From Candidatus Methylomirabilota bacterium (GTDB lineage: Bacteria; Acidobacteriota; Thermoanaerobaculia; Thermoanaerobaculales; Sulfomarinibacteraceae): a stretch of DNA of 64,000 nt. The stretch is taken from positions 1,009 to 65,008 of the forward strand of contig DATHSO010000191.1 of NCBI GenBank assembly GCA_035464095.1. Reading direction: 5' to 3'. The position numbers were made by a program, and so were the translations under genes. Positions 16,551 through 57,511 of this stretch are shown piece by piece. Every line of letters begins with the position of its first letter. The first letter of the stretch is position 1. Below the pieces are notes generated by a model. The model was not told the DNA's origin and ran no database searches. It saw only the letters and a list, made by a program, of their open reading frames with translations.

Positions 16551-16729
16551 CCGCGGTCTTCTGCAACCCGATCGACAGCGAGGAGCGGACCGGGTCCTTC
16601 GGGAGGACGCGCTCGGTGACGCGGTGATCCCTTTTCTCGGCCGATGTCGTCTGGAGATACAGGGGGACCGAAGCTGTCCAGCGGCCGATCGGGGTCACGG
16701 GCGGGCGTCCCCGCGATGGGGAGACCTCC

Positions 16730-41793: not shown

Positions 41794-43464
41794 TCAGGGG
41801 ACCGTGATCTGACCGCGCGCGAGCAGCTCCGGAGTGTTCGCTGCCGGGTCGTACATCCCCATGAATCGGTTCACAAGGTCGGTGTCGGTCGCTGCCAGGT
41901 CCATGACGAAAGGGTACGAGAGGCTCTGGAACAGGAGCTCCGCCGTCACCGTCAACGGCGCTGCGAATCCGGTCACGTCGACCAGGTACACGACGCGGTC
42001 AGCACCCCCCTGGAAGTCGTCATCCGCATCCGCGGATCCATAGACGCCGACGTCGGTGCCCGTAGCGGCGGCCTTGTCGAACCCGGCCGGCAGCAGGCGG
42101 TTGTCCTTCGCGTACGAATGCGCTCGCAGCAGGGTCTGGGTCACGTCACCCTCATACGTGAGCATGATCGGCTCGTAGATCTGGACCTGGTCGGGCGATG
42201 TGATCTCGGTGTGGTGCGGCTCGAACGTCGCGGGATCCGAGTCGGCGGCGTTGCCCTCGATCCTGCCGTCGCCCGTCGGCCTCCCCGACTCGAAGACGAG
42301 CGCCCCGTCACCATCAGTGACCCTGAGGTGCAGCCAGGCCCGCCGCGACGGAAGACCGCTCGGGAGCTTGTGGCCGGTTCGGTTGACGACGTCCACCATC
42401 ACCCTGAGGTCGACTCCCAGATCCGCCTCGACCGTCAGAGCCGCAGTGTCGTTCAGGAGCTGACTCCGGGTCCGCGAGATGGTGTCGTCGAGTTGCCATG
42501 CCTCCGCGGTCACTCCGAGATCGGCGGCGTTGGCTTTGAGCAGCTCCAGCACGAAACAGTTGCCGCCGGCGAAGTGGTGCTGCCAGAAGGGCTCACGAGC
42601 TGCGAGGCGGGGCGGACGGTTGCTGATCACGACAGCTCCCACGGCTAGCGGCAGGTGGCAGTCCTGGCAGGTCGCGGGGAATCCGCTGTGCTCCCACTCC
42701 AGGTAGGTCGTCTGCTCCGGGAAGTAGGGATCGACCGGCACCGGGTTCCCGCCGGCATCGAGAACGGGCGTGTACAGGGTGTGGCAGCTGCCGCAGTGGG
42801 CCGGGTCCTCGATCTGGGCGCCGAGGGCCGGGTCGAAGCCCGCGGCCTGCCGCATCGCGTTCCGCAGTGGGTCCTGATAGGGCCCGAAGATCGTGCGGTC
42901 CGGGGGCCAGGTCGAGGTGTCGATCTCGTAGCCGCCGGTGAAGCTGCTCGGGGTTCCCAGACCGGTCGGCTGGACCTGATGGCAGAGACAGCAGGATACG
43001 CCGTCCATCGCAGCCTCGTGCAGGGAATGTGCGGGGTCGAGAAACCCGGGACCGAGCACCTCGACCGCCGAGCCGTGGGTGATCGCTTGGTAGCGCGCCA
43101 TGCCCATGTGGCACCGGGTGCACTTGTCCTCGATGACCTCCTTCACGTGGGGAGCGCGAGCCACCTCCGAGCTGATCTTGGCTTGCCAGAGGGGGTCCTT
43201 GGCGGCGTTGGCCATCATGGTTGATCGCCAGTGCGCGTCATTCGAGACATCGTTGCCAACCGAGTCTTTGAGCCTGCTGTGGCAGGTGGCGCAGACTCCC
43301 GCCCCGGAGAAGTCCTCGGTTTCGAAGGTGCTGAGCGTTGTGGCCCCCTGGCCCGCAGCGGGACCCGGCCCGGTGCCGGTCTGGGCGCTGACGACCATCG
43401 GCGCGAGCCACAGGGCGAGGGGCGCGAAGGCGACGCGAAGGACCCGGGAGAGCAGTGTCGACAT
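41794..43464 (-). CDS. Periplasmic pentaheme c-type cytochrome
   Basis: I place the start at ATG 43464, with AGGAGGAG upstream. Signal peptide LRVAFAPLALWLAPMVVSAQ. There are five CxxCH motifs (CATCH, CTRCH, CCLCH, CGSCH, CQDCH). Confidence 0.8.
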   Translation of the reverse strand: MSTLLSRVLRVAFAPLALWLAPMVVSAQTGTGPGPAAGQGATTLSTFETEDFSGAGVCATCHSRLKDSVGNDVSNDAHWRSTMMANAAKDPLWQAKISSEVARAPHVKEVIEDKCTRCHMGMARYQAITHGSAVEVLGPGFLDPAHSLHEAAMDGVSCCLCHQVQPTGLGTPSSFTGGYEIDTSTWPPDRTIFGPYQDPLRNAMRQAAGFDPALGAQIEDPAHCGSCHTLYTPVLDAGGNPVPVDPYFPEQTTYLEWEHSGFPATCQDCHLPLAVGAVVISNRPPRLAAREPFWQHHFAGGNCFVLELLKANAADLGVTAEAWQLDDTISRTRSQLLNDTAALTVEADLGVDLRVMVDVVNRTGHKLPSGLPSRRAWLHLRVTDGDGALVFESGRPTGDGRIEGNAADSDPATFEPHHTEITSPDQVQIYEPIMLTYEGDVTQTLLRAHSYAKDNRLLPAGFDKAAATGTDVGVYGSADADDDFQGGADRVVYLVDVTGFAAPLTVTAELLFQSLSYPFVMDLAATDTDLVNRFMGMYDPAANTPELLARGQITVP

Positions 43465-43680
43465 GATCTCCTCCTGCCTCGGCCGGACCGGTACCGGCAT
43501 GCGAGGGCTTCGAAGTGTTCATTCAACATTGCCGCGTCGAGTTGAGAAAAACAATGATCGATCTAAATCATTTTTGCTCTGACGCATGCGCATCAGGGTT
43601 CTGAAGCCTGGCACCACAACGTACCATCGATACCATCTATGGTGGGACGACGGCGGCGGGTCCGGGATAGACTGCGGGGG

Positions 43681-44880
43681 ATGGAACGTCCGGCGTACGA
43701 GCGTGACGCGTATCTGAGTGAGTTCGACACGGAGGTGGTCGAGGTTGGAAGGGACGGCGAGCGGCCGTGGGCGGTCACCGCCGACACGATCTTTTACCCC
43801 GAGGGCGGCGGCCAGCCGGCGGACCGGGGCAGGATGGGCGGGGTCGAGGTTGTCGACGTTCGGAATGTCGACGGTGCCATACGACATTGTCTGTCCCGCG
43901 AGCTGGCACCCGGTCCGGTCCGCCAGGAGCTCGACTGGTCGAGGCGCTTCGACCACATGCAGCAGCACTCCGGCCAGCACCTGCTGACCGTGGTCGCTCT
44001 GCAGCGCTTCGGCTGGCCGACCACCGCCTTCCACCTCGGCCCCGAGCTCAGCGACATCGAGCTCGACGTGCCCTCCCTCGGCGGGGACGACCTGCGCCGC
44101 CTCGAGGATGCCGTCAACGAGGAGATCCGGGCCGCGCACCCGATCGTGGTCCGCTACGCCGCAATCGGCGAGATGGAGACCCTCGGCGTGCGCTCGAGAA
44201 TGCTCCCGGAGGGTCTTACCGGCGAGCTTCGGCTCGTGGGGATCGAGGGCCTCGACCTCAACACCTGCGGCGGCACCCACGTCCGCTCGACGGCCGAGAT
44301 CGGCGCCCTGGCCCTGGTCGGCACCGAGGCGATGCGCGGTGGCACCCGGCTCCACTTCGTCGCCGGCGACCGGCTGCGGCGACGGCTCGCCGCCCACGAG
44401 GCTCGGAACGTCCGGCTGCGAACCCTCCTCGATGCGGCCGACGACGACCTCCCCGCTCTGGTCGAGCTCCGCATCGGCCGCGAGAAGGAGATGGCGCGGG
44501 AGCGGCGCCGGCTGCTCGCCGAGCTGGCCAGCGCCGAGGCCGAGCGCCTGGCGGTGGGCCCGGAGGGTGTGCTGACGGCCCACTGGGACGACCGCGACCT
44601 GCCATTCCTCCAGGAGGTCGGCAAGGCCCTGGTCGCCCTGGCGCCCGAGCGGGTTGCCCTGCTCAGCTCAGGCTGCGGCGCTGGGGGCGCCTTCCTGGTG
44701 GTCGCCCCCGAGGCCTCCGGTCTCGACCTGGCCTCGGTCGGGCCCGAGCTCTGCGCCCTCCTCGACGGCCGAGGAGGCGGCCGTGCCCCGTTCTTCCAGG
44801 GCAAGGCTGCCGCGGTCGACCGCCGCGGCGACGCCGCGGCCCTGCTCTCCCGAATTCAACCCCCGACCCCGAAGACCTGA
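43681..44880 (+). CDS. alaX: AlaX-L-type alanyl-tRNA editing protein (tRNA_SAD domain)
   Basis: The start is ATG 43681 (MERPAYERDAYLSEFDTEVV). It has TIFYPEGGGQPAD, the zinc motif HSGQHLL, and CGGTHV. Confidence 0.75.
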   Translation: MERPAYERDAYLSEFDTEVVEVGRDGERPWAVTADTIFYPEGGGQPADRGRMGGVEVVDVRNVDGAIRHCLSRELAPGPVRQELDWSRRFDHMQQHSGQHLLTVVALQRFGWPTTAFHLGPELSDIELDVPSLGGDDLRRLEDAVNEEIRAAHPIVVRYAAIGEMETLGVRSRMLPEGLTGELRLVGIEGLDLNTCGGTHVRSTAEIGALALVGTEAMRGGTRLHFVAGDRLRRRLAAHEARNVRLRTLLDAADDDLPALVELRIGREKEMARERRRLLAELASAEAERLAVGPEGVLTAHWDDRDLPFLQEVGKALVALAPERVALLSSGCGAGGAFLVVAPEASGLDLASVGPELCALLDGRGGGRAPFFQGKAAAVDRRGDAAALLSRIQPPTPKT

Positions 44881-44905
44881 CATCCTCAGACCTCACGCGT
44901 CCCAA

Positions 44906-44954
44906 CTCATAATTCATAATTCATAATCGAGAATTGAGAATTAAGAATTGAGAG
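44906..44954. repeat. AT-rich heptad repeat element in palindromic arrangement, (CATAATT)x3 then (GAATTNA)x3; likely a bidirectional hairpin between convergent genes
   Basis: CTCATAATTCATAATTCATAATCGAGAATTGAGAATTAAGAATTGAGAG. The AATTC and GAATT blocks pair, giving about 18 of 22 positions by hand folding. It fills most of the 74-bp gap between the alaX stop and the stop of the minus-strand gene. Confidence 0.7.
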
Positions 44955-46922
44955 TTACGGACCTGTGGACTCCCGAGCCTCCACGCCCCCCTCACCCGCT
45001 CCCTCGAGGCCGTCGTACCAGGCCCGCGGCTTGGCCAGGTGGACCTTGCTCTTGCCCCGGTCGAAGCCGATGCCGGCGGCGAGGGCCTTGTACTTGACGT
45101 AGACCCGGCCGTCGGGCTTCTTGTTCGCGATCCGCAGCGAACCGAGGACCTCGAGCCCGTCGCCGGCGACCATGAGATCGTCGATGGTGGTCCCGTCGGT
45201 GTCGGTGGCGAGGCTGGTCGTGGCAGTGATGTTCTCGATGTTCGGGACCAGCTTCATCCAGCCCGGTGTGTCGGCGATACTCCTCAGCAGGGCGATCACC
45301 GGACGGCTGTCCCGCATGGTGAGCCGGGTCGCCGACCGGGCGACCATCGGCCGCGCGAAGGTGACGGTGCCGCTCGCGATGTCCACGGTCCCGAACCACG
45401 GGTCGAGCTTGGCCTGCTGCTTGGCGCTCAGGGCGGTGTTGGCGATGTGCTCGAGGCGGATGTTTGTTCCCGACAGGTCGAAGCGGCGGGCGGCGAGGTC
45501 GCCGTCCGCCAGCGTCACGCGGGCCTCGAGATCACCGGAGAGCACGTCGCCTCTGTGGTCCATCCGGATGCTCTCGGCGATCAGCTCGAGGGAGCCGCTG
45601 GCCGCGCCGGCCTCGTCCACCTCGAGGTGGGCACTCACGTCGCCGGTGCCCGAGGTGATGGCGATCGGGAACGACTCGGGGAAGAGCGGGTCGAGTGCGC
45701 CGAGGTTCCTGATCTCGGCCTCCGGCAGGCTGAACTCGACCCCGGACGGCTTCACAGCCTCGGGCAGGTCGAAATCCCGCCAGGCAATGGTCAGCCCGAG
45801 ATTCGAGCCGACGACGTCGACGGAGCCGTCGGCGGGGTCCTCGATCTGGACGTGGTCGAGGACGGTCCGGACGGTGGTCACGTGCTGACCGCCGGCCCGC
45901 TCGGTGCTGCCGCTGACCTTGGCCGCGCCGGTGGCGACCAGGTTCATGATGCCGATCCGGAACGCGTCGGACTCCATGGAGTACGTCGACCCGGCACGAA
46001 CGGCGCCCCGCTCGAGCTCGAGGCGGGCCGCCAGGGTGCCCCCGGACCCCGACGTGGTCAGCCCCGGGGTGACCTGGTGCATCAGGTCCTCACTCGCCAT
46101 GAGGTGGCCGGCGAGCTCGACCGTGCCGCTGATGCCGCCGATCACGTCGGCCGGCCTGGCGCCCCGGGCCGGGAAGGTCTCGAAGCGGACGTCGCCGGCG
46201 ATCTCGAGGTTGTCGGTGACGAGGTCGCGGCCGATGCGGATCGTGGTCGGCTCGAGGTCGAGGCGGCCGCGGTGGATGGTGATGGTCTGCCTCGGTTTCA
46301 CGGTCACTCCGCCGCCGACCCAGCCCTCGCCCTCGATGCGGACGTGGTTGAGGGCCACCCGCACCGGTGAGTCGACGTGAACTCCGGTGAGCTTGATGGT
46401 CCACGGCCGGCGATTCTTCTTGCGCGGGTAGAGGTCCTCCGGCTTCGGGTCGGGCGGGTTCGCCAAGCCCGGGATCTCGGGGTAGAGCTCGACGAGCTCC
46501 GGTGGGAAGGGCTTCCGCTCCTCGGCAGCGTCCTCCCGAGGAGGTGCGTCCAGCCGCCGCCGGTACCGGAAGTCCACGTCCTCGGCGTCGACCCCGCTGA
46601 TGTGCACGATCTTGAAGGGCAGCTTCACGAGGTTGACGGTGGCGCGGGCCTCGCCGACCCGGACGTGGATCTGGTTCCGGAGGGTCTGGCTGCGCAGCTC
46701 GAAGCCCTCCACCCGGACCAGCCCCGGCAGGAAGGTCGACGCCGACTGCCAGGAGTAGTGGGTCTTCTCCGGCTTCTTGTTGAGGAGCCTCTCGATGGTG
46801 CCGGTTCGAAGGAGCGCGTTGGCCGCGACCACGTAGACGACCTCGACCGCGATGGCGACCACCGCGATCCGGACGAGCCACCTTCGCACCGGTTGACGCC
46901 ACCACGACCTCGTCGCGTTCAT
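44955..46922 (-). CDS. Membrane-anchored hypothetical protein (655 aa)
   Basis: Single N-terminal TM (WLVRIAVVAIAVEVVYVVAANALL), then a long beta-rich region. The architecture is vaguely AsmA/TamB-like, but I can name no motif. Confidence 0.55.
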   Translation of the reverse strand: MNATRSWWRQPVRRWLVRIAVVAIAVEVVYVVAANALLRTGTIERLLNKKPEKTHYSWQSASTFLPGLVRVEGFELRSQTLRNQIHVRVGEARATVNLVKLPFKIVHISGVDAEDVDFRYRRRLDAPPREDAAEERKPFPPELVELYPEIPGLANPPDPKPEDLYPRKKNRRPWTIKLTGVHVDSPVRVALNHVRIEGEGWVGGGVTVKPRQTITIHRGRLDLEPTTIRIGRDLVTDNLEIAGDVRFETFPARGARPADVIGGISGTVELAGHLMASEDLMHQVTPGLTTSGSGGTLAARLELERGAVRAGSTYSMESDAFRIGIMNLVATGAAKVSGSTERAGGQHVTTVRTVLDHVQIEDPADGSVDVVGSNLGLTIAWRDFDLPEAVKPSGVEFSLPEAEIRNLGALDPLFPESFPIAITSGTGDVSAHLEVDEAGAASGSLELIAESIRMDHRGDVLSGDLEARVTLADGDLAARRFDLSGTNIRLEHIANTALSAKQQAKLDPWFGTVDIASGTVTFARPMVARSATRLTMRDSRPVIALLRSIADTPGWMKLVPNIENITATTSLATDTDGTTIDDLMVAGDGLEVLGSLRIANKKPDGRVYVKYKALAAGIGFDRGKSKVHLAKPRAWYDGLEGAGEGGVEARESTGP

Positions 46923-46945
46923 TCCGCCCCCCGTTGTCCCGGATC

Positions 46946-48030
46946 GGTACCACGTATCACATTGTGATGTTTCGCAGTCGGGAGTAGGATGAATGGGTCC
47001 CGTCCGCGTGCATGGAAGGAAATGCCATGCCGCGAAAACCCCGACTGTTCATCCCATACGCGACCTATCACGTCTATTGCCGAGTGAACCGAGGCGAGTT
47101 CGTCTTCGCCGACCGAGAATACTCTGATTTGTTTCTCGAAACGCTGTGCGAGACCAAAGAACGAGATGGCCTCTCGATTCTCGCCTGGTGTTTGATGACG
47201 AACCACTACCACCTGGTGCTCAAGACCGGATCAGTACCCCTTTGGCGGACGATGGCCCGGTTGCAGCGAACGGTCGCCAGGGAGCACAACCGCAGGAGGC
47301 GGTACCTCGGGCGGCTGTGGCAGAGCAGGTACCGCGCGAGGCTTGTCGATTCCAACGACTACTTCGGGCAAGTGGTGGCCTATGTCCATTTGAATCCTGT
47401 CGCCGCGGGGTTGGTCACCGACCCTGCCGACTACGCGCTCAGCGGACACCGGGAAGCGATCGGCCAAAGGCGCTCTCAGATATTGGACTCGGGGGCATTG
47501 CTCGAGTTGTTCGGTGAGGAAGACCCGTCCCTGATGCGAACGGCGTACCTTGAATGGGTGCGCTCCGTCGCGGAGGCGAAGTGGCTGGAATTGGGTCTTC
47601 GCGAGCTTCCGTGGTGGACGGACGCCTCAGACGCCGAAGAAATCGTCGGGCCCGATTTACGTCGCCCTGTCGAGACGTACGACCAACGGAAGCTGGTTGA
47701 AGACAGGCTCCCACTGGATCTGCCCGCGATTGTTGGCGCAATCTGCGACCTCACCGGGGTGAAACTCGCCGACCTTCGCTCGCGGAAGAGACGGTCCGAG
47801 GTAGCGAAGGTGCGGTGGGATCTCGCTGCCATCGCGGTGGGAAGATACGGTCACAGAGTTTGCGACCTCGCGGTGATCTTGAGCAAAAACGCCGGTTCTG
47901 TGAGCCGGTGGCTAACCGAAGCTGAGCGCCGCCAAGCCTCCGACCCCGAGTATCGAACCCACCTCGATCACCTCGAGCGTCGAGTCGTCGACCGGGCGGT
48001 TCAGAACATCACAATGTGATACGTGGTACC
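46946..48030 (+). mobile_element. RAYT / IS200-like Y1-transposase unit bounded by perfect 26-bp inverted repeats
   Basis: The left IR at 46946-46971 is GGTACCACGTATCACATTGTGATGTT. The right IR at 48005-48030 is AACATCACAATGTGATACGTGGTACC, its exact reverse complement. Each IR contains the hairpin ATCACA-N-TGTGAT. The unit is clearly less GC-rich than its flanks. Confidence 0.8.
47012..48019 (+). CDS. REP-associated tyrosine transposase-like protein (Y1 HUH transposase, IS200 family) with C-terminal DnaA_C-like HTH
   Basis: 335 aa with the HUH motif CLMTNHYHLVLK and the Tyr motif RLWQSRYRARLV. The C-terminus LADLRSRKRRSEVAKVRWDLAAIAVGRYGHRVCDLAVILSKNAGSVSRWL resembles the DnaA C-terminal DNA-binding domain. 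The stop codon lies inside the right IR. Confidence 0.8.
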   Translation: MEGNAMPRKPRLFIPYATYHVYCRVNRGEFVFADREYSDLFLETLCETKERDGLSILAWCLMTNHYHLVLKTGSVPLWRTMARLQRTVAREHNRRRRYLGRLWQSRYRARLVDSNDYFGQVVAYVHLNPVAAGLVTDPADYALSGHREAIGQRRSQILDSGALLELFGEEDPSLMRTAYLEWVRSVAEAKWLELGLRELPWWTDASDAEEIVGPDLRRPVETYDQRKLVEDRLPLDLPAIVGAICDLTGVKLADLRSRKRRSEVAKVRWDLAAIAVGRYGHRVCDLAVILSKNAGSVSRWLTEAERRQASDPEYRTHLDHLERRVVDRAVQNITM

Positions 48031-48076
48031 TATCCTATCCCGTCCGACGAATCGTCGCAGCTGGCCAGCCCCCCGG

Positions 48077-49165
48077 TCACCGCTGAACCCGGGCTGTTCC
48101 GCCTTTGGCGAAGGCCTCGACCTCCGGGAGCCTGGCCATGGTCACATCGCCCGGGAACGTCGTGGACAGGGCGCCGTGGGCCCAACCCAGACGGACGACG
48201 TCATCCAGCTCGCGCCCGTCCAGCATTCCGTAGATCAGACCCGAGGCGAAGCCGTCGCCGCCGCCGATGCGATCGAGGACGCCGAGCTCGCAGGTCGGGG
48301 AGATGGCCCGCTGCCCGTTGTACCAGATCACGGCCCCCCACTGATGGCGGTTGGCGGTCTCGACCTCCCTGAGGGTGGTGGCCACCATCTTCACGTCGGG
48401 GAAGTCGCGATTGACCTCGGCGATCATCTCGAAGAAGACGGAGGTGTCCAGCTTCGACTTCTTCTCGACGTCGGGCCCCGTGACGGCCAACCCCATCTGC
48501 AGGTCCTCCTCGTTGCCGATGAGGACGTCGACATGTTCGACGATCCGCTTGAAGGTGCGCTGCGCGGCCTCGAGCCCGCCGATGGACTCCCACAGCTTGC
48601 CGCGGTAGTTCAGATCGAAGGACGTGACGGCGCCGTGTTGCTTCGCGGCCCTCATGGCCTCGATGATGAGCTCGGAGGTCGTTGCCGACAGTGCCGCGTA
48701 GATTCCCCCGGAGTGGAACCAGCGGACTCCTTCGCCGAAGATCGCCTGCCAGTCGAAATCGCCCGGCTTGAGCATGGCGCCGGCCTCGTTCGCCCGGTTG
48801 TAGAAGACCACCGGAGGTCGGACGCCATAGCCGAGATCGCTGTAAACAGTGGCGATGTTCGGCCCCCGAGCGCCGTCATGTTCGAACCACTTGTAGAAGG
48901 GTCTGACACCCATTTCCCTGACCCGGGTCTGGACCAGCTCGCCAATGCCGTAATCCACCATGGCGGTGGCGATCCCGGTCTTCAGACCGAAACAATCCGC
49001 CAGGTTGGCGGCGACGTTGTACTCACCACCCGAAACGTGGATCGCCACCGACCGCGCCTTCCGGAATGGGATTCGGCCCGGATCCAGGCGATGGACCAGG
49101 GAACCCAGGGACAGGAAATCGAGCGCACAGTCGTCGTTCCTGATTCTCAGCTCAGCCATGAACAC
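48077..49165 (-). CDS. PfkB-family sugar-acid kinase (2-dehydro-3-deoxygluconokinase-like)
   Basis: 362 aa with a PfkB signature near the C-terminus (DRIGGGDGFASGLIYGML) and an N-terminal GGEYNVAANL-type motif. Confidence 0.8.
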   Translation of the reverse strand: MFMAELRIRNDDCALDFLSLGSLVHRLDPGRIPFRKARSVAIHVSGGEYNVAANLADCFGLKTGIATAMVDYGIGELVQTRVREMGVRPFYKWFEHDGARGPNIATVYSDLGYGVRPPVVFYNRANEAGAMLKPGDFDWQAIFGEGVRWFHSGGIYAALSATTSELIIEAMRAAKQHGAVTSFDLNYRGKLWESIGGLEAAQRTFKRIVEHVDVLIGNEEDLQMGLAVTGPDVEKKSKLDTSVFFEMIAEVNRDFPDVKMVATTLREVETANRHQWGAVIWYNGQRAISPTCELGVLDRIGGGDGFASGLIYGMLDGRELDDVVRLGWAHGALSTTFPGDVTMARLPEVEAFAKGGTARVQR

Positions 49166-49202
49166 CTCTCCACACGACGAGAGCTCCTCTCGCCTGCCAA
49201 CT

Positions 49203-49251
49203 CATAGTTCATAATTCATAATTCATAATTCATAATTCATAATTCGCAATT
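49203..49251. repeat. Seven tandem heptanucleotide units (CATAGTT, CATAATT x5, CGCAATT)
   Basis: Read directly. It lies in the 90-bp gap between the gnd stop (49256) and the kinase start (49165). It is a local AT island in ~70% GC DNA. Confidence 0.85.
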
Positions 49252-49255
49252 GGGT

Positions 49256-50710
49256 CTATGCGGTGTACGTCCGCGCGGTGGTGTCGCCGCCGCGGCCGGT
49301 CCAGTCGGTGTGGGAGAACTCGCCCCGGGGCCGGTCGACCCGCTCGTAGGTGTGCGCCCCGAAGTAGTCGCGCTGGGCCTGCAGGAGATTGGCCGGCAGG
49401 CGGTCGTGCCGGTAGCCGTCGTAGAACGCGAGCGCGCTCGAGAGTGCGGGAACCGGGATGCCCATGGCGACCGCCGAGGCGAGGACCCGCCGCCAGGCCG
49501 CCTGCGCCTGGTGGACCTTGTCCGCGAAGTAGGGATCCAGGAGGAGGTTGTCGAGGTCGGGATTGGTGTCGAAGGCGTCTTTGATCCTGCCCAGGAAGAC
49601 CGACCGGATGATGCAGCCGCCTCGCCACATCAGCGCGATCCCGCCGTTGTTGAGGTTCCAGCCGTACTCCTTCGCGGCGGCCCGCATCAGCATGTAGCCC
49701 TGGGCGTACGAGACGATCTTGGCGGCCAGGAGGGCCTGTTGGAGGTCGTCGACGAACGCGGCGGGATCACCGCCGAAGCTCGCGCCTGCGGGCCCGTGGA
49801 GGACTCTGGACGCTGCCACGCGCTCGTCCTTGAGAGCCGACAGGAAGCGCGCGAAGACCGCCTCGCCGATGAGGGTCAGGGGGATGCCCATCTCGAGAGA
49901 GGCCATGGCGGTCCACTTGCCGGTGCCCTTCTGTCCGGCGGTGTCGAGGATCTTCTCCACCATGGGCTCGCCGTCGGTGTCCCTGAAGCCGAGGATGTCG
50001 CGGGTGATCTCGATCAGGTAGGAGTCGAGCTCGCCCTCGTTCCACTCGGCGAAGATGGCGTGCATCCGGTCGTGGTCGAGGCCGAGGCCGTCCTTCATGA
50101 GCTGGTACGCCTCGCAGATGAGCTGCATGTCGCCGTACTCGATGCCGTTGTGGGTCATCTTGACGAAGTGGCCGGCGCCGTTCTCCCCGACCCACTCGCA
50201 GCACGGCGACCCGTCCTCGACCTTGGCCGAGATGGCCTGGAAGATGGGCTTGACGTGGGGCCACGCTGTCGGCGAGCCGCCGGGCATGATGGACGGGCCG
50301 GTCCGGGCCCCCTCCTCGCCGCCCGAGACCCCGGTGCCGATGTAGAGCAGCCCCTCGGACTCGACTCGGGCGGTTCTCCGGATGGTGTCGTTGTAGTTCG
50401 AGTTGCCGCCGTCGATGATGATGTCGCCCTCCTCGAGCAGGGGAATCAGCTGGTCGATGAAGGCATCGACCGGTTTGCCGGCTTTGACCAGCAGCATGAC
50501 CCGTCTCGGAGTGGCGAGCGAGTCGACGAGCTCCTCGAGGCTGTGGACCCCGATGATCCCGGTGTCCTTGGCGGTGCCTGCCATGAACTCGTCGACCACC
50601 GAGGTGGTGCGATTGAAGACGGCCACCTTGAAGCCGTGGTCGTTCATGTTGAGGACGAGGTTCTGGCCCATCACCGCGAGCCCGATGAGGCCGATATCCG
50701 CTTGAGTCAT
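49256..50710 (-). CDS. gnd: 6-phosphogluconate dehydrogenase, decarboxylating
   Basis: The start is ATG 50710 (GAGGAGG upstream), giving 484 aa. MTQADIGLIGLAVMGQNLVLNMNDHGFKVAVFNRT and the full-length pattern are typical of Gnd. The longer track ORF to 51163 is an upstream extension through the neighbouring gene. Confidence 0.9.
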   Translation of the reverse strand: MTQADIGLIGLAVMGQNLVLNMNDHGFKVAVFNRTTSVVDEFMAGTAKDTGIIGVHSLEELVDSLATPRRVMLLVKAGKPVDAFIDQLIPLLEEGDIIIDGGNSNYNDTIRRTARVESEGLLYIGTGVSGGEEGARTGPSIMPGGSPTAWPHVKPIFQAISAKVEDGSPCCEWVGENGAGHFVKMTHNGIEYGDMQLICEAYQLMKDGLGLDHDRMHAIFAEWNEGELDSYLIEITRDILGFRDTDGEPMVEKILDTAGQKGTGKWTAMASLEMGIPLTLIGEAVFARFLSALKDERVAASRVLHGPAGASFGGDPAAFVDDLQQALLAAKIVSYAQGYMLMRAAAKEYGWNLNNGGIALMWRGGCIIRSVFLGRIKDAFDTNPDLDNLLLDPYFADKVHQAQAAWRRVLASAVAMGIPVPALSSALAFYDGYRHDRLPANLLQAQRDYFGAHTYERVDRPRGEFSHTDWTGRGGDTTARTYTA

Positions 50711-50715
50711 CGATC

Positions 50716-52005
50716 TTACCTCCTCTTGGTTCCACTCGAGTTTTCGGGTCGGACCCGAAAAAGTCGTTCGCCTGCTCTCGGTACGAGGAGGATTCCCTCG
50801 GCTTCCCGTCCGGCCCACTCCTGCAGCTCGACGGTCGACGGGTCGAGGTATCCGAGACCGATGCGCCGGCACCTCTCCTCCGGGATCCCGGTCGCCAGCG
50901 TGACGTTGATGCGCGCGCGCTCGACGCCGTCGAGGTAGGTGCCCGCCCCGCGCAGGTGAGTGGAGTGGGCGAGGATCCCCCAGGGAACGCGGGCGAAGCG
51001 CTCCCACTGTGCGACGAAGTAGTCGCGCACGTGGTAGCCCACCTCGTCGATGTGCTTGCCGTGCACGAAGGAGACCTCTGTGATGTGGGGGGCGAAGATC
51101 ACGACCTCGCCGCCGTCGGCGACCGCCGGCTCGAGCTTGTACATGCCCTTGGCGCCGGTCCACAGGTCGTCGTACATCCTCGGAACCACCGACAGCACCC
51201 GCCGGAACGGCCGGTCGACCCAGACGATGTCGAGCATTGCCGACAGCTCCGTCGCCCGGCGCCAGGTCTCGTCCATTTCGCCCACGAAAAGACCCCGAAG
51301 ATCATCGCCGTGCATGACCATCGCGACGAGCGATGTCGGCGTCGGGATGAACGACGCGGCGCGGTCGATGAGCCGACGCATGGGGGTGTCGGCAACGCCG
51401 ATGATCTCCTTGCTGGTCAGCAACGCGCCGAGCCAGTGGGTGGCGTCGATGACGGCCTGCCCCGACACACCCGGGACGAAGTACTTGTTACCCCCGGAAA
51501 ACCCGGCCACCTCGTGGGGGAAGACCGGCCCGCAGACGATGAGCTCGTCGTACGGGCGCTCGCCGTTCGGGTCGCCGACCAGCCGGTTGAGTCGCACCGG
51601 GACCTCGAGGTCCATCCGGCCTTCACTCGCGTCGCGGATCTCCTCCGCCGTGATCGTGCCCACGGTGACGAAGGTCTCCTCGAGGTCCCAGCGATGGTTG
51701 AACACCATGGAGGCACCGGTCGAACCGGCGGTCACCGGAACCCCGACCAGGCGCCCGAGAGCCTGCTCGCTCATGGGCGGGTGGGTCCCGAGAGCGACCA
51801 GGAAATCGAGCGCGCCGACCATCGGACCGAGCACCTCGTGGAAGCAGCGGTACATCTCGGGGATCGGCGCCGTCCGGGTGCCGTCCGGGATGATGACCAG
51901 GACCCTCTTGCCGGCGAACCTCGACGCCCCGAGCCCCGCCTCGAGCACGGCGCGCACCTCGTCCCCGGCGAGCGACCGGTCCGCGCGGCAGACGCTCGCG
52001 ACCAC
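50716..52005 (-). CDS. LarA-family (nickel-pincer-cofactor-dependent) 2-hydroxyacid racemase/epimerase-like protein
   Basis: 429 aa. It has the DUF2088/LarA N-terminal pattern GKRVLVIIPDGTRTAPIP and HEVAGFSGGNKYFVPGVSG (cf. the LarA GYSGG.K block). Confidence 0.7.
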   Translation of the reverse strand: MVASVCRADRSLAGDEVRAVLEAGLGASRFAGKRVLVIIPDGTRTAPIPEMYRCFHEVLGPMVGALDFLVALGTHPPMSEQALGRLVGVPVTAGSTGASMVFNHRWDLEETFVTVGTITAEEIRDASEGRMDLEVPVRLNRLVGDPNGERPYDELIVCGPVFPHEVAGFSGGNKYFVPGVSGQAVIDATHWLGALLTSKEIIGVADTPMRRLIDRAASFIPTPTSLVAMVMHGDDLRGLFVGEMDETWRRATELSAMLDIVWVDRPFRRVLSVVPRMYDDLWTGAKGMYKLEPAVADGGEVVIFAPHITEVSFVHGKHIDEVGYHVRDYFVAQWERFARVPWGILAHSTHLRGAGTYLDGVERARINVTLATGIPEERCRRIGLGYLDPSTVELQEWAGREAEGILLVPRAGERLFRVRPENSSGTKRR

Positions 52006-52012
52006 CGCCGCC

Positions 52013-52795
52013 TCAAATGGTCATGGCGGTGAAGCCGCCGTCGACCCGGATCAGCGCGCCGGTGACGAAGCCCGAGGCATGGGGCGAGGCCAACCACACC
52101 ACGGCCCCGGCGAGCTCTTCGGGTTCGCCGAAGCGACTCATGGGGGTGTGGTTGATGATGGCCGCCGTCCGTTCCTCGGTGAGCAGCTTCCGGTTCTGCT
52201 CCGCCGGGAAGAAGCCGGGGGCGATGGCGTTGACCCGCACGTTGTGCGGCGCCCACTCGCGGGCCAGGAACTGGGTCATGTTGTTGACCCCCGCCTTGGT
52301 GATGGAGTAGGTGAAGACCTTGGAAAGCGGCGGGCCCGACGACGCCGACGAGATGTTGATGATCGACCCCCCGTCGCCCTGCTCCACCATCCGCCTGCCG
52401 AACACCTGGCTGGCGAGGAAGTAGCTCGTCAGATTGACGGTGAGCACCCGGTCCCACTCCTCGCGGGTGATCTCGAAGACGGGCGTGCCCGAGTTGATGC
52501 CGGGAGCGTTGAGCAGGATGTCCACCCGCCCCCATCTCGCCACGATCCGGTCCAGCGCCCGGCGCAGGTCCTCGGCGCTGGTGGCGTCGGCCTCGAGCCC
52601 GACGGCGTCGACCCCGGCCGTGCTCTCGATCGATCGGGCCTGTGCCGTCGCGGCATCCCCGAGCAGGTCGAGGATCGCGACCCGTGCTCCGGCCCGACCC
52701 AGGGCCGTCGCCATGGCGCCCCCGAGCACCCCGCCGGCACCGATGGTCACCGCGACCTTCCCTTCGAGGGAGAAGAGATCTTCGAGGTAGCTCAT
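52013..52795 (-). CDS. SDR-family oxidoreductase (UxuB-like mannonate/fructuronate or gluconate dehydrogenase type)
   Basis: ATG 52795 (MSYLEDLFSLEGKVAVTIGAGGVLGGAMATALGRAGARVAILD) overlaps the upstream stop by 1 nt (TGATG). The catalytic region reads ..SSASSGPPLSKVFTYSITKAG... Confidence 0.8.
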   Translation of the reverse strand: MSYLEDLFSLEGKVAVTIGAGGVLGGAMATALGRAGARVAILDLLGDAATAQARSIESTAGVDAVGLEADATSAEDLRRALDRIVARWGRVDILLNAPGINSGTPVFEITREEWDRVLTVNLTSYFLASQVFGRRMVEQGDGGSIINISSASSGPPLSKVFTYSITKAGVNNMTQFLAREWAPHNVRVNAIAPGFFPAEQNRKLLTEERTAAIINHTPMSRFGEPEELAGAVVWLASPHASGFVTGALIRVDGGFTAMTI

Positions 52796-54354
52796 CAGGC
52801 CCTCCCGAACGCTCGGACGTGCCGCTCGAAGTGTCGCACCAGGTTTTCGTGGTGGGCTTCCTCGTTGGACTCGAGACACGCCAGGATCCGATTCTTGAAG
52901 CGCGTCCGACCGTCGCGGTGCCGCTCGGTGAGAACCCGGCCGAAGGTCACGTGGAGCACCTGCCGCGCGTCGTCGTCGTCGAGGAGGTCGGCCAGCTCCC
53001 CGTCGGTGACAGCGGGTCCGGCCGGGACCCGCTCGAGCCGAGCCGAAACGTGGTACGTCCGCCTCTCGTGCTCGTACAGCGAGCGTGCGAAGTCGAGAAC
53101 CTCGCGGAAGAGACCCGGATCGCGTGCCGCGACGGTGCGCAGGGCCTCGAGGTAGCTGGTACCGGCGGTCTTGACGTGAACCCGGCCCCTGCCGAGCTCG
53201 CCGATCACGCGGTAGACGCTGAACTTGTCGCTGCCGGAGTGGATGCTGATCTTGTAGGGGCCGAGGGACTCGGCGATGGTGAGGTGCTTGACATACTCGT
53301 CACGAAAGAGCTCGAGGTCGCCGCGGTAGTCGATCCCCTTCTCGAAGTCGCCGACGAAACGAGGCGCCAGACCGACCCAGCGCACCCCCATCCGCTCGAG
53401 CTCCGAAGCCACCAGCCAGTGCTCGAAGGGCGTCGTCACCGAGGCCGTCTCGTCCACCGAGACCTCGACCTCGAAGGGGCGGTCGCCCATCGTCGCGGCG
53501 ATGTGGTGGTACATCATGGCGGCGTGGGCGATCGCGGCGCCGTACTTGACCCAGGCTCGGCGCACCTCCTCGCGGCTCGGCTCCAGGACCAGATCCGGCC
53601 CGACCCCGATCCTCGAATCATCCCAGCGGGCAAGCGCTTCGTCCGCCGTCGTCCGCAGATCGACCCAGGGCAGAGCGGCCAGGGCCGACTCGAGCTCGGG
53701 CGGCGCCATGACATCGGCAGCATCGACGACGTGATCGCCGGGATCGATGGTGAACATGGTGAAGCCCGCCGCCGCCATCCGGTTGACGTCGGCCGGGTTT
53801 TTGAGGTGATCGGCATCGGCGCCGAAGCCCGACCGCCAGCCTTCCTGGAGCACGGCCCAGAACGCCGCGTCCATGACCTCCCCCGGGGTCCTGTCGGTGC
53901 GTTCGAGCTCGCGGATGGACTGCTGGGCGAGGACGACCTCGAAACCGCTCCCCCGCATGGCCTGCAGGTGAGCCGGGCCGGCGAGGCCGAGGCGGTCGCC
54001 GAGACCGAAGCTGTCCGCGAGACCCAGCGGCTGCGGGCGAGTCCAGCTCAGCACCTCGCGGATGGTGGTGGCGTTCGCCCGGCTCAACGGGCACCGTCGG
54101 ACCTGGTCACGATCGGCATCCGCCCAGCGCAGACAGGTTCCCTCGAGCCGTGTCGCCAGGGGGTCGTCGATGGGGGACACGACGTAGAGCCGGCGTCCGG
54201 GCGTGCCGTGCCCCATGAAGAGCACCGCGCCACCGATGCCGACGACGGATCGAGGGTAGAGATCGAGTGACCGTTCACCCAGAGCCAACGGCACCCGATC
54301 GATGCCTCGCGGAGGCTCCTCGATGAGGCCTTGCAGCGTCTGCCGGAGTTTCAT
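52795..54354 (-). CDS. UxaE-like tagaturonate/fructuronate epimerase family protein (tentative)
   Basis: 519 aa. ADSFGLGDRLGLAGPAHLQAM..LAQQSIRELERT..GFGADADHLK resembles my recollection of the UxaE family. The family call is unverified. Confidence 0.5.
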   Translation of the reverse strand: MKLRQTLQGLIEEPPRGIDRVPLALGERSLDLYPRSVVGIGGAVLFMGHGTPGRRLYVVSPIDDPLATRLEGTCLRWADADRDQVRRCPLSRANATTIREVLSWTRPQPLGLADSFGLGDRLGLAGPAHLQAMRGSGFEVVLAQQSIRELERTDRTPGEVMDAAFWAVLQEGWRSGFGADADHLKNPADVNRMAAAGFTMFTIDPGDHVVDAADVMAPPELESALAALPWVDLRTTADEALARWDDSRIGVGPDLVLEPSREEVRRAWVKYGAAIAHAAMMYHHIAATMGDRPFEVEVSVDETASVTTPFEHWLVASELERMGVRWVGLAPRFVGDFEKGIDYRGDLELFRDEYVKHLTIAESLGPYKISIHSGSDKFSVYRVIGELGRGRVHVKTAGTSYLEALRTVAARDPGLFREVLDFARSLYEHERRTYHVSARLERVPAGPAVTDGELADLLDDDDARQVLHVTFGRVLTERHRDGRTRFKNRILACLESNEEAHHENLVRHFERHVRAFGRA

Positions 54355-54383
54355 CCCGTCCCCTGCCCCATGGCGTTCAGTTC

Positions 54384-54420
54384 ACCATTCATAATTCATA
54401 ATTCATGATTCGAAACTCAT
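54384..54420. repeat. Third copy of the heptad repeat (CACCATT, CATAATT x2, CATGATT, CGAAACT)
   Basis: Read directly. It lies in the 141-bp gap between the epimerase-gene stop (54496) and the UxaE-like start (54354). It has the same orientation as the copy at 49203. Confidence 0.7.
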
Positions 54421-54495
54421 ATCTCCGAGCTCAGTCATCCGCCGGTGTCTCGTTGGAGCCTCGCCGACATGGTAGTGCTCCTGCCGCTGCCGCGG

Positions 54496-55305
54496 CTACC
54501 CGGCCACCGATCGCAGATGATCGATGGCCCGCCGGGCGGCGGTGTCCGCATCGGGCGCCGGCATGAACTCGCCGGAGACGAAGCCCCGGTAGCCGGTGGC
54601 CGCGAGGACCTCGAGGATCCGCCGGAAGTCCAGGTGCCCCGCGCCCGGGTACCACCGGTTGGAGTCGGCGACGTGGAAGTGGAAGATCCGATCGCCCACC
54701 GCCCGGATGGTGTCCTCGATGTCGGGCTCCTCGATGTTCATGTGGAAGGTGTCGAGCAGCAGCCCGAAGCGGTCCGAGCCGACCCGCTCGACCAGGTCGA
54801 GCCCCTGGCGGGCGGTGTGGACGAGGTCGGTCTCGTAGCGGTTCATGGGTTCGAGGGCGAAGCGGACCCCGGTTCCGGCGGCCACGTCGGCACACGCCCG
54901 AATGGCCTCGACCAGGAGCTCCATGGAGCGCTCGTGGCTCTGGCCCTCCGGCGTGATGCCGCGGATCAGGCCGAGGATGACGACTGCGCCGAGGCGCTCG
55001 GCGAGCGGTACGTGGCTCGAGATGCGATCGATCGCCGCGCTCCGTACCGCCTCGTCGTCGCTGGTGAAGGACAGGCCCTCCTCGCCCCAGGCCTGGCCGG
55101 TGCCGATGGCCGGCACCTCCAGGCCCTGGGCCCGGACGGTGCGCTCGAGCTCGCCGGCGTTCACCAGGGAAGGATCCCGCACGGCGAGCTCGACGCCGTC
55201 GTAGCCCAAGCCGGCGATCTTGGCCACGTTGGCCTCGAAGTCGCCCTTGAGGGCCACCGCCTGGAAGGCGGCGGCGTGGGTCGAGAGCACGATGCTCAGC
55301 TTCAC
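54496..55305 (-). CDS. Sugar phosphate isomerase/epimerase (xylose-isomerase-like TIM barrel)
   Basis: GTG 55305 lies 2 nt after the upstream stop, giving 269 aa. It has GYDGVELAV, FALEPMNRYETDL, LLLDTFHMNIEE and FHVADSNR, the typical AP_endonuc_2 / IolO/IolE-like pattern. Confidence 0.8.
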   Translation of the reverse strand: MKLSIVLSTHAAAFQAVALKGDFEANVAKIAGLGYDGVELAVRDPSLVNAGELERTVRAQGLEVPAIGTGQAWGEEGLSFTSDDEAVRSAAIDRISSHVPLAERLGAVVILGLIRGITPEGQSHERSMELLVEAIRACADVAAGTGVRFALEPMNRYETDLVHTARQGLDLVERVGSDRFGLLLDTFHMNIEEPDIEDTIRAVGDRIFHFHVADSNRWYPGAGHLDFRRILEVLAATGYRGFVSGEFMPAPDADTAARRAIDHLRSVAG

Positions 55306-55307
55306 GC

Positions 55308-57505: not shown

Positions 57506-57511
57506 GGGTCC

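What the first reader, a model, noticed from the sequence alone, without database searches (positions are those of the whole stretch)
49203..49251. AT-rich heptanucleotide tandem repeat (CATAATT)n recurring at three intergenic sites
Seen in sequence:
- Seven tandem 7-bp units lie here.
- Related arrays lie at 54384-54420 and 44906-54 (coordinates 44906-44954).
- All three are strictly intergenic, with the CATAATT units in the same orientation, in DNA that is otherwise ~70% GC.
- On the minus-strand mRNA of the catabolic operon they read (GAAUUAU)n. This creates an AUG every 7 nt, and mini-ORFs such as MNYEL-stop in all three frames, just upstream of the kinase and UxaE-like genes.

Possible roles:
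- slipped-strand (phase-variable) spacers;
- AU-rich RNase E processing or decay sites that segment the long operon mRNA;
- binding arrays for a regulator or nucleoid protein;
- a genome-specific repetitive extragenic element.
Basis: seen in the sequence. Interest (0 to 1): 0.55.

Follow-up and report, generated by a model that had tools for sequence, protein, structure and literature searches.

The report
Polymorphic AT-rich 7-base tandem repeats
Three short runs of the 7-base unit TCATAAT sit between genes of a very GC-rich marine bacterium and gain or lose whole units between near-identical strains, so they are a new example of the common but unexplained bacterial 7-base microsatellites, not a dedicated regulatory device.

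Summary
Shuffles predict none.

Two near-identical assemblies (99.88% over 21 kb) differ by only two indels. Both are exactly one 7-bp unit: A has one fewer in the other assembly and B one more. The arrays therefore behave as slippage-prone VNTRs.

The unit is not genome-specific. DNA around those genome hits is dominated by period-7 arrays of about 68 other units.

This matches the known, functionally unexplained class of intergenic heptanucleotide simple sequence repeats (Mrazek LSSRs, cyanobacterial STRRs, TAACTGA and GGGAATC repeats). I found no description of this unit in the searchable literature.

The unit carries TAA on one strand and TGA on the other. That closes all three frames in both directions and explains why the arrays are intergenic. 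Array C is a quasi-palindrome that folds into a significant hairpin between convergent genes.

There is no support for a regulator operator, on/off phase switching or a link to the nearby Y1 transposase. An RNase E or ribosomal protein S1 role is plausible but untested.

The parts
49202..49251 (.). Array A. The + strand reads TCATAGT, (TCATAAT)5, TCGCAAT. The operon (-) strand reads AATTGCG (AATTATG)5 AACTATG. It begins 4 nt after the gnd stop codon (49256-49258) and ends 43 nt before the pfkB ATG (49159).
   Evidence: One unit fewer in L132. Logan contig L133 ends inside it.
54382..54444 (.). Array B. The core is TCATAAT TCATAAT TCATGAT (54389-54409). It sits inside nine in-phase TC-initial heptamers, which look like a decayed older array. 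It lies in the 141-nt gap between the TIM-barrel gene (54496-55305, -) and uxaE (52795-54354, -), and the core ends 34 nt before the uxaE ATG.
   Evidence: One unit more in L132 and identical in Logan contig L001. The relative L122 has only the seed TCGAATCATGA at the matching place.
44907..44955 (.). Array C, a composite: (TCATAAT)3 followed by CGAGAAT TGAGAAT TAAGAAT TGAGAGT. The last base overlaps the TAA stop codon of the 655-aa ORF.
   Evidence: Identical in L132 and L133.
44895..44966 (.). Long imperfect hairpin formed by the two halves of array C plus flanking GTCC/GGAC. It lies between convergent genes, in the position a terminator or REP-like hairpin would occupy, and has no U tract.
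   Evidence: Fold z-scores are -5.45 (+ strand) and -4.75 (- strand), with 0 of 200 shuffles folding as well. Homologous genes in L276 and L277 are followed by G+C-rich stem-loops in the predicted fold; the folded segments as a whole are not more stable than shuffles (z +0.15 and -0.43).
49178..49192 (-). Small stem-loop CGAGAG-GAG-CUCUCG on the operon mRNA, between array A and the pfkB ribosome-binding site GGAGAGG.
   Evidence: L122 has CGAGG-UGGAU-CCUCG at the matching place, so the stem is kept through changed bases.
49208..49243 (+). Overlapping sigma-70-like matches TTCATA-N17-CATAAT, created by the 3 x 7 = 21 bp phasing of the repeat. They point antisense to the operon.
   Evidence: 9 of 12 matches each, and 4 sites in the region against 0.5 expected. 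These are consensus matches only.

Best explanation
The three arrays are heptanucleotide variable-number tandem repeats, that is, long simple sequence repeats.

How they arise and persist:
- They grow, shrink and re-homogenise by slipped-strand mispairing during replication or repair.
- Point mutation erodes their edges towards the GC-rich background.
- They are confined to non-coding gaps. The unit holds TAA on one strand and TGA on the other, and 7 is coprime with 3, so three units close all three reading frames in both directions.

What they probably do:
- They most likely have no dedicated sequence-specific function in this operon.
- Any effects are by-products: an unstructured AU-rich spacer upstream of pfkB and uxaE, and at site C a quasi-palindromic hairpin between convergent genes that may act like a terminator or REP hairpin.

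Shown here: the repeat structure, its non-randomness, unit-step length polymorphism, lack of conservation among relatives, cross-phylum recurrence and the C hairpin.

Inferred: slippage as the mechanism, near-neutrality, and the terminator-like role of C.
For: 1. Between two assemblies that are 99.88% identical over 21,083 bp (11 mismatches, 2 gaps), both gaps are single 7-bp units. One is in A (4 vs 5 GAATTAT) and one in B (3 vs 2). C is identical.
2. B sits in a 63-nt run of nine in-phase TC-initial heptamers, and A and C have partly eroded edge units. This fits a homogenised core with decaying flanks.
3. The closest syntenic relative, L122 (kinase 94% identical), has a different, degenerate heptamer run at the gnd-pfkB junction (GTTAGAC GTCAGGG GTTAGGA GTCAGAC GTGAGGA). 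At the uxaE junction it has only a single GAATCAT seed. L126 (91%) and L129 (86%) have no array. Most further relatives have no gap at all before pfkB.
4. The same unit forms arrays in many phyla. The genome scan stopped at its 120-locus limit. About 90% of those arrays are intergenic (130 of 145), in all four flanking-gene configurations: 37 and 24 co-directional, 19 convergent, 15 divergent.
5. In DNA around those hits, arrays more than 150 bp from the seeded ones are overwhelmingly period 7: 94, against at most 16 for any other period. They comprise 68 different units in 48 of 120 loci.
6. Distant homologues of the 655-aa gene also have heptamer arrays of other units next to them (L274, L275, L278, L280).
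7. The literature describes exactly this class. [quoted passage not shown] Their over-representation has been attributed to polymerase slippage (Mrazek 2007, as summarised in PMC4679880 and PMC4692102).
8. Rfam finds nothing in 44000-55500.
Against: - A 14%-GC tract persisting at three sites within 9.5 kb of a 70%-GC genome is not obviously neutral. The arrays must be young, actively homogenised or selected.
- The unit is 2-3 times commoner in viral contigs than four composition-matched controls (87 vs 26, 27, 42, 41). It is about as common as the published TAACTGA family (107). This hints at some unit-specific advantage.
- A and C share a 20-nt edge (CTCNCGCNTNCCAACTCATA). That suggests copying between sites, not independent birth.
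- In the two places where they sit inside the gene cluster, the arrays lie about 35-45 nt upstream of start codons.
- The polymorphism rests on two short-read assemblies, not on reads.
Confidence: 0.6

Rival explanations
1. Functional AU-rich RNA element on the polycistronic mRNA. (GAAUUAU)n would offer repeated single-stranded RNase E/G cleavage sites (GA|AUU fits RN|WUU), or ribosomal protein S1 binding sites. These would segment the operon transcript or boost translation of pfkB and uxaE. The small downstream hairpin would protect the new 5' end.
For: - A and B are predicted to be unstructured, with z-scores of -1.16 and +0.38.
- They lie 43 and 34 nt upstream of the start codons.
- They occupy the only sizeable intercistronic gaps of the ten-gene cluster.
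- A stem-loop between array A and the ribosome-binding site is kept through changed bases in L122.
- MacGregor proposed S1, Csp or CsrA binding for TAACTGA repeats (PMC4679880).
- The RN|WUU motif and AU-rich S1 enhancers are from my own knowledge.
Against: - C lies after a stop codon at a convergent gene end.
- L122 has a G-rich heptamer run at the same junction, and other relatives have none.
- Across phyla the arrays occur in both orientations and at convergent sites.
- The RNase E motif is low in information and expected in any AU-rich tract.
Confidence: 0.15
2. Expression-tuning contingency repeat, as with the heptanucleotide tracts upstream of Haemophilus influenzae hmw1A and hmw2A. Unit number would set how strongly the downstream gene is expressed, and the population would hedge its bets.
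For: - Unit-step polymorphism at both arrays that lie upstream of genes.
- A precedent exists for 7-nt repeats about 100 bp upstream of hmw genes that modulate expression (PMC2651432).
Against: - No sense-strand promoter-like site lies in or near A or B.
- The arrays are intercistronic inside an operon of sugar-acid catabolism genes, not surface or restriction genes.
- A 7-nt change alters only a spacer of about 90-140 nt.
- C cannot act in this way.
Confidence: 0.08
3. Sequence-specific protein-binding array. One version is contiguous heptads bound cooperatively by a ribbon-helix-helix protein, like the omega repressor of pSM19035. Another is an AT-rich landing pad for a nucleoid-associated silencer.
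For: - Contiguous 7-bp direct repeats are the known format of omega operators (my own knowledge).
- The tracts are extremely AT-rich islands in 70%-GC DNA.
Against: - No cognate gene was identified.
- Sites are intercistronic or at convergent gene ends, not at promoters.
- Copy number drifts between near-identical strains, and the unit is replaced in L122.
- The same unit recurs in unrelated phyla that would not share one regulator.
Confidence: 0.05
4. Self-assembled antisense promoter. Any run of four or more units places TTCATA and CATAAT 17 bp apart on the + strand. That would drive antisense RNA into gnd, the TIM-barrel gene and the 655-aa gene.
For: - Three overlapping matches of 9 of 12 lie in A, and 4 sites occur in the region against 0.5 expected.
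- TCATAAT has the best -10-like hexamer of the five A3T3C1 units tested and is also the most abundant of them. This is anecdotal, with n = 5.
Against: - These are consensus matches only.
- B has too few units to form the pair.
- There is no significant orientation bias towards downstream genes across 145 arrays (63 vs 46).
- Many carriers are Bacteroidota, which use a different promoter consensus.
Confidence: 0.05
5. REP-like mobile element spread by the neighbouring IS200-like Y1 transposase (47012-48019).
For: - A Y1_Tnp gene lies between A and C.
- A and C share about 20 nt of edge sequence.
- C is a hairpin.
Against: - tblastn with this transposase finds no relative in the 260 genome and viral loci then held (L002-L121 and L134-L273): 207 seeded on (TCATAAT)3 and 53 seeded on two control heptamers.
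- A and B are direct repeats without palindromic structure.
- L122 has heptamer runs but no transposase.
- B looks expanded in place from a GAATCAT seed.
Confidence: 0.03
6. Assembly artefact or chimeric join at a low-complexity sequence.
For: - The Logan contig L133 breaks inside array A.
Against: - Three independent assemblies agree on both flanks of B and C, and two agree on both flanks of A.
- The arrays (at most 49 bp) are shorter than the k=141 implied by the 'k141' contig names.
- L122 preserves the gnd-pfkB order across site A.
- The same arrays occur in isolate genomes.
Confidence: 0.01

Closest known systems
Heptanucleotide long simple sequence repeats (LSSR) of prokaryotes (Mrazek, Guo and Shah 2007; confirmed by Mori et al., SPADE, bioRxiv 10.1101/309039)
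   Same: - 7-bp head-to-tail unit, intergenic location and length variation in whole units.
- Co-occurrence with many other heptamer units in the same genomes.
- No established function.
   Different: - This unit (TCATAAT / ATGAATT) is not named in the papers I could search.
- The host is a roughly 70%-GC bacterium, probably of the Acidobacteriota (Sulfomarinibacteraceae-like), while the unit is 14% GC.
TAACTGA direct repeats of marine Beggiatoaceae, Cyanobacteria and Bacteroidetes (MacGregor 2015, PMC4679880)
   Same: - Heptamer carrying stop codons, mostly intergenic, with patchy cross-phylum distribution.
- Often mixed with other heptamers, and indels in 7-nt steps between strains.
- Similar abundance in viral contigs: 107 vs 87 stretches.
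   Different: - The unit differs.
- In the BOGUAY genome most TAACTGA sets lie within a few nucleotides of a start codon in forward orientation. Here the distances are 34 and 43 nt, and one array lies at a convergent 3' end.
STRR (short tandemly repeated repetitive) sequences of heterocystous cyanobacteria, and GGGAATC / GGGGAYT repeats of Xanthomonas and Nostoc (Rehm 2015, PMC4692102)
   Same: - Dispersed intergenic heptamer arrays that vary in length between close relatives and sometimes occur as inverted pairs.
   Different: - Those units are G-rich and can form G-quadruplexes. This one is AT-rich with a self-complementary AATT core and forms an ordinary hairpin only in the composite array C.
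Heptanucleotide repeats upstream of Haemophilus influenzae hmw1A and hmw2A (Dawid 1999, via PMC2651432)
   Same: - 7-nt tandem repeats upstream of a gene whose number varies between strains.
   Different: - Those lie within the promoters of surface-adhesin genes, where repeat number modulates expression, possibly through two alternative transcription start sites.
- Here the repeats are intercistronic in a catabolic operon, with no detectable sense promoter.
Heptad operator arrays of the omega repressor (Inc18 plasmids)
   Same: - Contiguous 7-bp repeats in tandem.
   Different: - Omega heptads (WATCACW) lie at promoters next to the gene for their ribbon-helix-helix binder. No such gene or promoter context was found here. 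The resemblance is one of format only.

Membership tests
Heptanucleotide LSSR / VNTR | Head-to-tail repeats of a 7-nt unit, longer than chance allows | tested here: met
   TRF gives 6.3, 3.6 and 3.0 + 4.1 copies. There are 11 matches to the doubled unit against 0.00 expected.
Heptanucleotide LSSR / VNTR | Length changes in whole units between close relatives | tested here: met
   The only two indels in a 21-kb alignment at 99.88% identity are -7 bp in A and +7 bp in B. The comparison is between assemblies, not reads.
Heptanucleotide LSSR / VNTR | Predominantly intergenic, with no fixed relation to gene orientation | tested here: met
   All three arrays here are intergenic. Elsewhere 130 of 145 arrays are intergenic, in all four flanking-gene configurations (gene calls made with a crude ORF caller).
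Heptanucleotide LSSR / VNTR | Carrier genomes are generally enriched in period-7 arrays of various units | tested here: met
   There are 94 independent period-7 arrays against at most 16 for any other period in 854 kb around the genome hits. Relatives L122, L274, L275, L278 and L280 carry other heptamer runs. This genome itself was seen only through one 64-kb window.
TAACTGA-type translational leader repeats | Forward-oriented array within a few nucleotides of the start codon, replacing the Shine-Dalgarno region | tested here: not met
   A and B end 43 and 34 nt before the ATG. pfkB keeps a GGAGAGG ribosome-binding site. C follows a stop codon.
Contingency-locus (phase-variable) SSR | Repeat inside an ORF, or between or next to promoter elements, so that unit changes switch or grade expression | tested here: not met
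   The arrays are not in any ORF. No sense-strand promoter-like site lies in or near them. The effect on expression could not be tested.
REP/BIME elements with RAYT (Y1) transposase | Imperfect palindromes dispersed in many copies and associated with a Y1 transposase | tested here: not met
   A and B are not palindromic. No relative of the Y1 transposase occurs in the 260 genome and viral loci then held, 207 of them seeded on this array. Only C folds.
Omega-type heptad operator | Heptad array at a promoter, with a cognate ribbon-helix-helix repressor gene | not tested
   The arrays are not at promoters. I did not search the window for a ribbon-helix-helix gene.
Known structured RNA family (Rfam) | Match to a covariance model | tested here: not met
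   No match with E-value up to 1 in 44000-55500 on either strand.

The most novel reading that the evidence does not exclude
(AATTCAT)n is not just one more slippage product. It would be a cross-phylum cis-element family, as abundant as the TAACTGA repeats, that is favoured because of what the unit does. One version: it is read by a conserved single-strand nucleic-acid binder or nuclease (ribosomal protein S1, a cold-shock protein or RNase E). Another version: any run of four or more units builds a TTCATA-N17-CATAAT promoter. In either case unit number would tune expression or antisense transcription of neighbouring genes, and arrays would be copied between sites, as the shared A/C edge suggests.
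Probability: 0.1. Interest if true: 0.65.

Novelty: new member of a known kind. Interest (0 to 1): 0.33.

Why it matters
- Heptamer tandem repeats are the commonest intergenic tandem repeat in prokaryotes, yet nobody knows why the period is 7 or whether the arrays do anything.
- This locus adds a clean case. The unit is AT-rich in a 70%-GC genome, unit-step polymorphism separates near-identical populations, and a different heptamer sits at the same junction in the nearest relative.
- The same unit recurs from Bacteroidota to Cyanobacteria, Lentisphaerae, Chloroflexota and viruses. That recurrence gives a concrete handle for a comparative survey: which units expand, in which lineages, and with which replication or repair genes.
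- For annotating this operon the practical message is modest. The arrays are best treated as polymorphic spacers and useful strain markers, not as regulatory sites.

Tried and rejected
1. Link to the neighbouring IS200-like Y1 transposase. tblastn against the 260 genome and viral loci then held (207 seeded on this array, 53 on two control heptamers) gave no hit. Rejected.
2. Defined element end 'CCAAC + array'. It occurs only at A and C of this organism among 3.95 Mb of fetched loci. The preceding unit looks like an eroded TCATAAC variant, and TCATAAC is a common variant elsewhere.
3. The recurrent composite (TCATAAT)n(TGAGAAT)n as a selected hairpin module. It appears in only 2 of 145 genome arrays (L053, L079). 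Most neighbouring units are one-base variants. Not significant.
4. Known RNA families. None found.
5. Literature search for the unit or the doubled unit. Nothing relevant to bacteria.
6. The two giant ORFs at 27037-35436, which I had assumed were rpoB and rpoC and wanted as taxonomic markers. They are not. They are domain-less hypothetical proteins. The best named hit nevertheless pointed to Candidatus Sulfomarinibacteraceae.
7. Exact-protein look-up of Gnd. Not on record. The sister contig L480 (11.8 kb) has no heptamer arrays, which is too little DNA to be informative.
8. Distance of arrays to start codons across phyla. My ORF caller places starts just after any all-frame stop, so the apparent clustering within 20 nt is an artefact and is not used.

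Full report
**Observation**

- A (49203-49251) is CATAGTT, five perfect CATAATT, then CGCAATT. TRF scores it as 6.3 copies at 97% identity.
- B has two perfect units plus TCATGAT.
- C is (TCATAAT)3 followed by four units of the related CGAGAAT/TGAGAAT/TAAGAAT/TGAGAGT.
- The doubled unit with up to two mismatches occurs 11 times, always on the + strand and only in these arrays. Shuffles expect 0.00.
- These are the only strong lag-7 tracts in the window. The window is 69.8% GC.

**Gene context**

Pfam and GC3-based gene calls and the gene calls of a second assembly give a minus-strand cluster:
- zinc alcohol dehydrogenase, GFO/IDH oxidoreductase, creatininase-family protein, TIM-barrel isomerase
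- [B]
- UxaE, SDR, LarA-N-like protein, 6-phosphogluconate dehydrogenase (gnd)
- [A]
- PfkB kinase

Then follow an oppositely oriented IS200-like Y1 transposase, a 655-aa protein with no Pfam domain, [C], and a convergent AlaX-like gene.

A and B fill the only sizeable intercistronic gaps of the cluster, 96 and 141 nt. C fills a 74-bp gap between convergent genes and touches the stop codon of the 655-aa gene.

**Why the arrays are intergenic**

The unit contains TAA on the + strand and TGA on the - strand. Because 7 and 3 are coprime, three units put a stop in every frame in both directions. Such an array cannot survive inside a gene.

**Length polymorphism**

Exact-protein look-ups recovered the same locus from other assemblies.
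- Logan contigs from SRR9691048 (L001, L133) are identical to the window. L133 ends inside array A.
- ENA contig ERZ27272644:k141_1141816 (L132) aligns over 21,083 bp at 99.88% identity, with 11 mismatches and two gaps.
- Both gaps are single heptamer units. A has 4 instead of 5 GAATTAT, and B has 3 instead of 2. C is unchanged.

This is the signature of slipped-strand mispairing. The arrays are shorter than the k=141 implied by the 'k141' contig names, so an assembly error is unlikely, but read-level confirmation is still needed.

**Relatives**

- The kinase has 78-94% identical homologues, mostly in MAGs labelled Marinimicrobia/Fidelibacterota.
- The closest syntenic contig is L122 (62% GC, kinase 94% identical). 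It keeps UxaE-SDR-LarN-Gnd-PfkB with a 93-nt gap before pfkB.
  - The part of that gap next to pfkB aligns with the window, including a small stem-loop kept through changed bases.
  - In place of (GAATTAT)n it carries GTTAGAC GTCAGGG GTTAGGA GTCAGAC GTGAGGA.
  - Upstream of uxaE it has only TCGAATCATGA, where the window has GAATCAT GAATTAT GAATTAT GAATGGT. B therefore looks expanded in place from a seed.
- L126 (91%) and L129 (86%) have no array. Most further relatives have gnd-larN-pfkB packed without a gap.
- Distant homologues of the 655-aa gene (23-57% identical) again have heptamer runs of other units beside them. One is a nine-unit run starting 4 nt after the stop codon in L274. In L276 and L277 the gene is followed by G+C-rich stem-loops in the predicted fold, although those folded segments are not more stable than shuffles.

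The lineage is thus rich in heptamers, but neither the unit nor the presence of an array at a given site is conserved.

**Distribution of this unit**

Hits came from Bacteroidota, Cyanobacteria, Lentisphaerae, Spirochaetes, Chloroflexota, Verrucomicrobia, Calditrichia and a Thermoanaerobaculia MAG, and included cultured isolates.
- Of 145 arrays, 130 are intergenic, in all four flanking-gene configurations.
- Away from the seeded arrays the same loci hold 94 further period-7 arrays of 68 units, against at most 16 for any other period.
- Counts of stretches in viral contigs:

| Unit (x3) | Stretches | Role |
|---|---|---|
| TCATAAT | 87 | this finding |
| TAACTGA | 107 | published family |
| TCAATAT | 26 | composition-matched control |
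| TCATTAA | 27 | composition-matched control |
| TCTAATA | 42 | composition-matched control |
| TCAAATT | 41 | composition-matched control |

The unit is favoured two- to three-fold but is not unique.

**Literature**

- Heptamers are known to be the most abundant intergenic tandem repeats in prokaryotes, with no known function (bioRxiv 10.1101/309039).
- Their excess has been tentatively ascribed to polymerase slippage (Mrazek 2007, as summarised in PMC4679880 and PMC4692102).
- Described families include the cyanobacterial STRRs, TAACTGA (PMC4679880) and GGGAATC (PMC4692102).
- The hmw heptanucleotide tracts of Haemophilus influenzae are a case where repeat number tunes expression (PMC2651432).
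- I found no paper that names this unit.

**Structure and signals**

- A and B are predicted to be unstructured on the operon mRNA.
- C folds into a long imperfect hairpin on both strands, with z = -5.45 and -4.75. The AATT core is self-complementary, and CAT pairs imperfectly with GAG or AAG.
- The + strand of A yields overlapping TTCATA-N17-CATAAT matches, antisense to the operon. No sense-strand site appears.
- Rfam finds nothing.

**Rejected links**

- The Y1 transposase has no relative in the 260 genome and viral loci held at that point, 207 of which were seeded on this array.
- Chimeric assembly is excluded by the agreement of independent assemblies and by synteny in L122.

**Verdict**

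This is a new unit of a known but unexplained class: a polymorphic heptanucleotide VNTR. My best reading, at about 0.6, is slippage-driven and largely neutral spacer DNA confined to gaps by its all-frame stops, with C doubling as a terminator-like hairpin. An AU-rich RNA role (RNase E or S1) comes next at about 0.15. On/off phase switching, regulator binding and a mobile-element origin are not supported.

Noticed in passing
window 47012-48019 (+): IS200-like Y1 transposase gene (Pfam Y1_Tnp, residues 18-126) with a roughly 200-aa C-terminal extension. Local GC is 0.55-0.63 in a 70%-GC window. It is inserted, in the opposite orientation, between pfkB and the 655-aa gene, and the same arrangement is present in L132 and L133.
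   Followed up: partly
window 27037-31602 (-) and 31603-35436 (-): Two adjacent giant ORFs (1522 and 1277 aa) with no Pfam domain. The 1277-aa protein has 676 homologues at E <= 1e-100. Nearly all carry no name or are called 'hypothetical'. The best named hit, at 88% identity, is from Candidatus Sulfomarinibacteraceae, and others are from Acidimicrobiia MAGs. The pair is conserved in L480.
   Followed up: partly
window 48077-58669 (-) compared with L122, L126, L129, L470-L479: The sugar-acid cluster (UxaE, SDR, LarA-N-like, Gnd-like, PfkB) is shared at 78-94% kinase identity with contigs of 43-63% GC, many labelled Marinimicrobia/Fidelibacterota. Gene order differs: gnd-larN-pfkB in most, larN-gnd-pfkB here and in L122. 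This suggests horizontal transfer and module shuffling, and the heptamer arrays sit at the module junctions.
   Followed up: partly
L023 675-978; also L024, L061, L074, L084 (Lentisphaeria MAGs): A higher-order repeat. Each module is (TGAATGC)n + GAGGCGCAT + (TCATAAT)n + TCGTTAGGGGCGAG.., and in L023 the module is repeated four times within 300 bp with 3, 4, 5 and 7 TCATAAT units. In L024 and L074 runs of GGGCGAG follow. L122 has a similar TGAATGCTGAAGCTGAGTGGGCGAGGGGCG upstream of uxaE.
   Followed up: no
L002, L003, L015, L039, L077, L081, L083, L097, L121 (Bacteroidales and relatives): The arrays often lie about 10 nt upstream of a Bacteroidota -7 promoter box (TAnnTTTG, for example TACCTTTG). 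Sometimes they lie between two divergent boxes, so unit number would change the distance between the promoters.
   Followed up: no
L043 6123-6265 (Thermoanaerobaculia MAG, 65% GC); also L089, L094, L106, L119: Inverted pairs of heptamer arrays, (ATTATGA)n - loop - (TCATAAT)n, which could form long hairpins. L043 mixes a GC-richer variant, (TCATCGT)7, with (TCATAAT)3.
   Followed up: no
window 17514-17777: A 144-bp tandem duplication (1.8 copies, 77% identity) inside the 1349-aa ORF at 16628-20674.
   Followed up: no
window 41794-43500 (-) and 43536-43587: A 568-aa protein with several CxxCH haem-binding motifs, probably a multihaem cytochrome c. It is followed by an AT-rich 52-bp tract in the divergent gap before the AlaX-like gene, probably a promoter region.
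   Followed up: no
L162, L215 (IMG/VR viral contigs): Single viral contigs carry several separate TCATAAT-type arrays: L162 has six exact (TCATAAT)3 matches, and L215 has at least five TCATAAT/TCATAAC mixed runs. Heptamer richness therefore extends to phage or prophage DNA.
   Followed up: no
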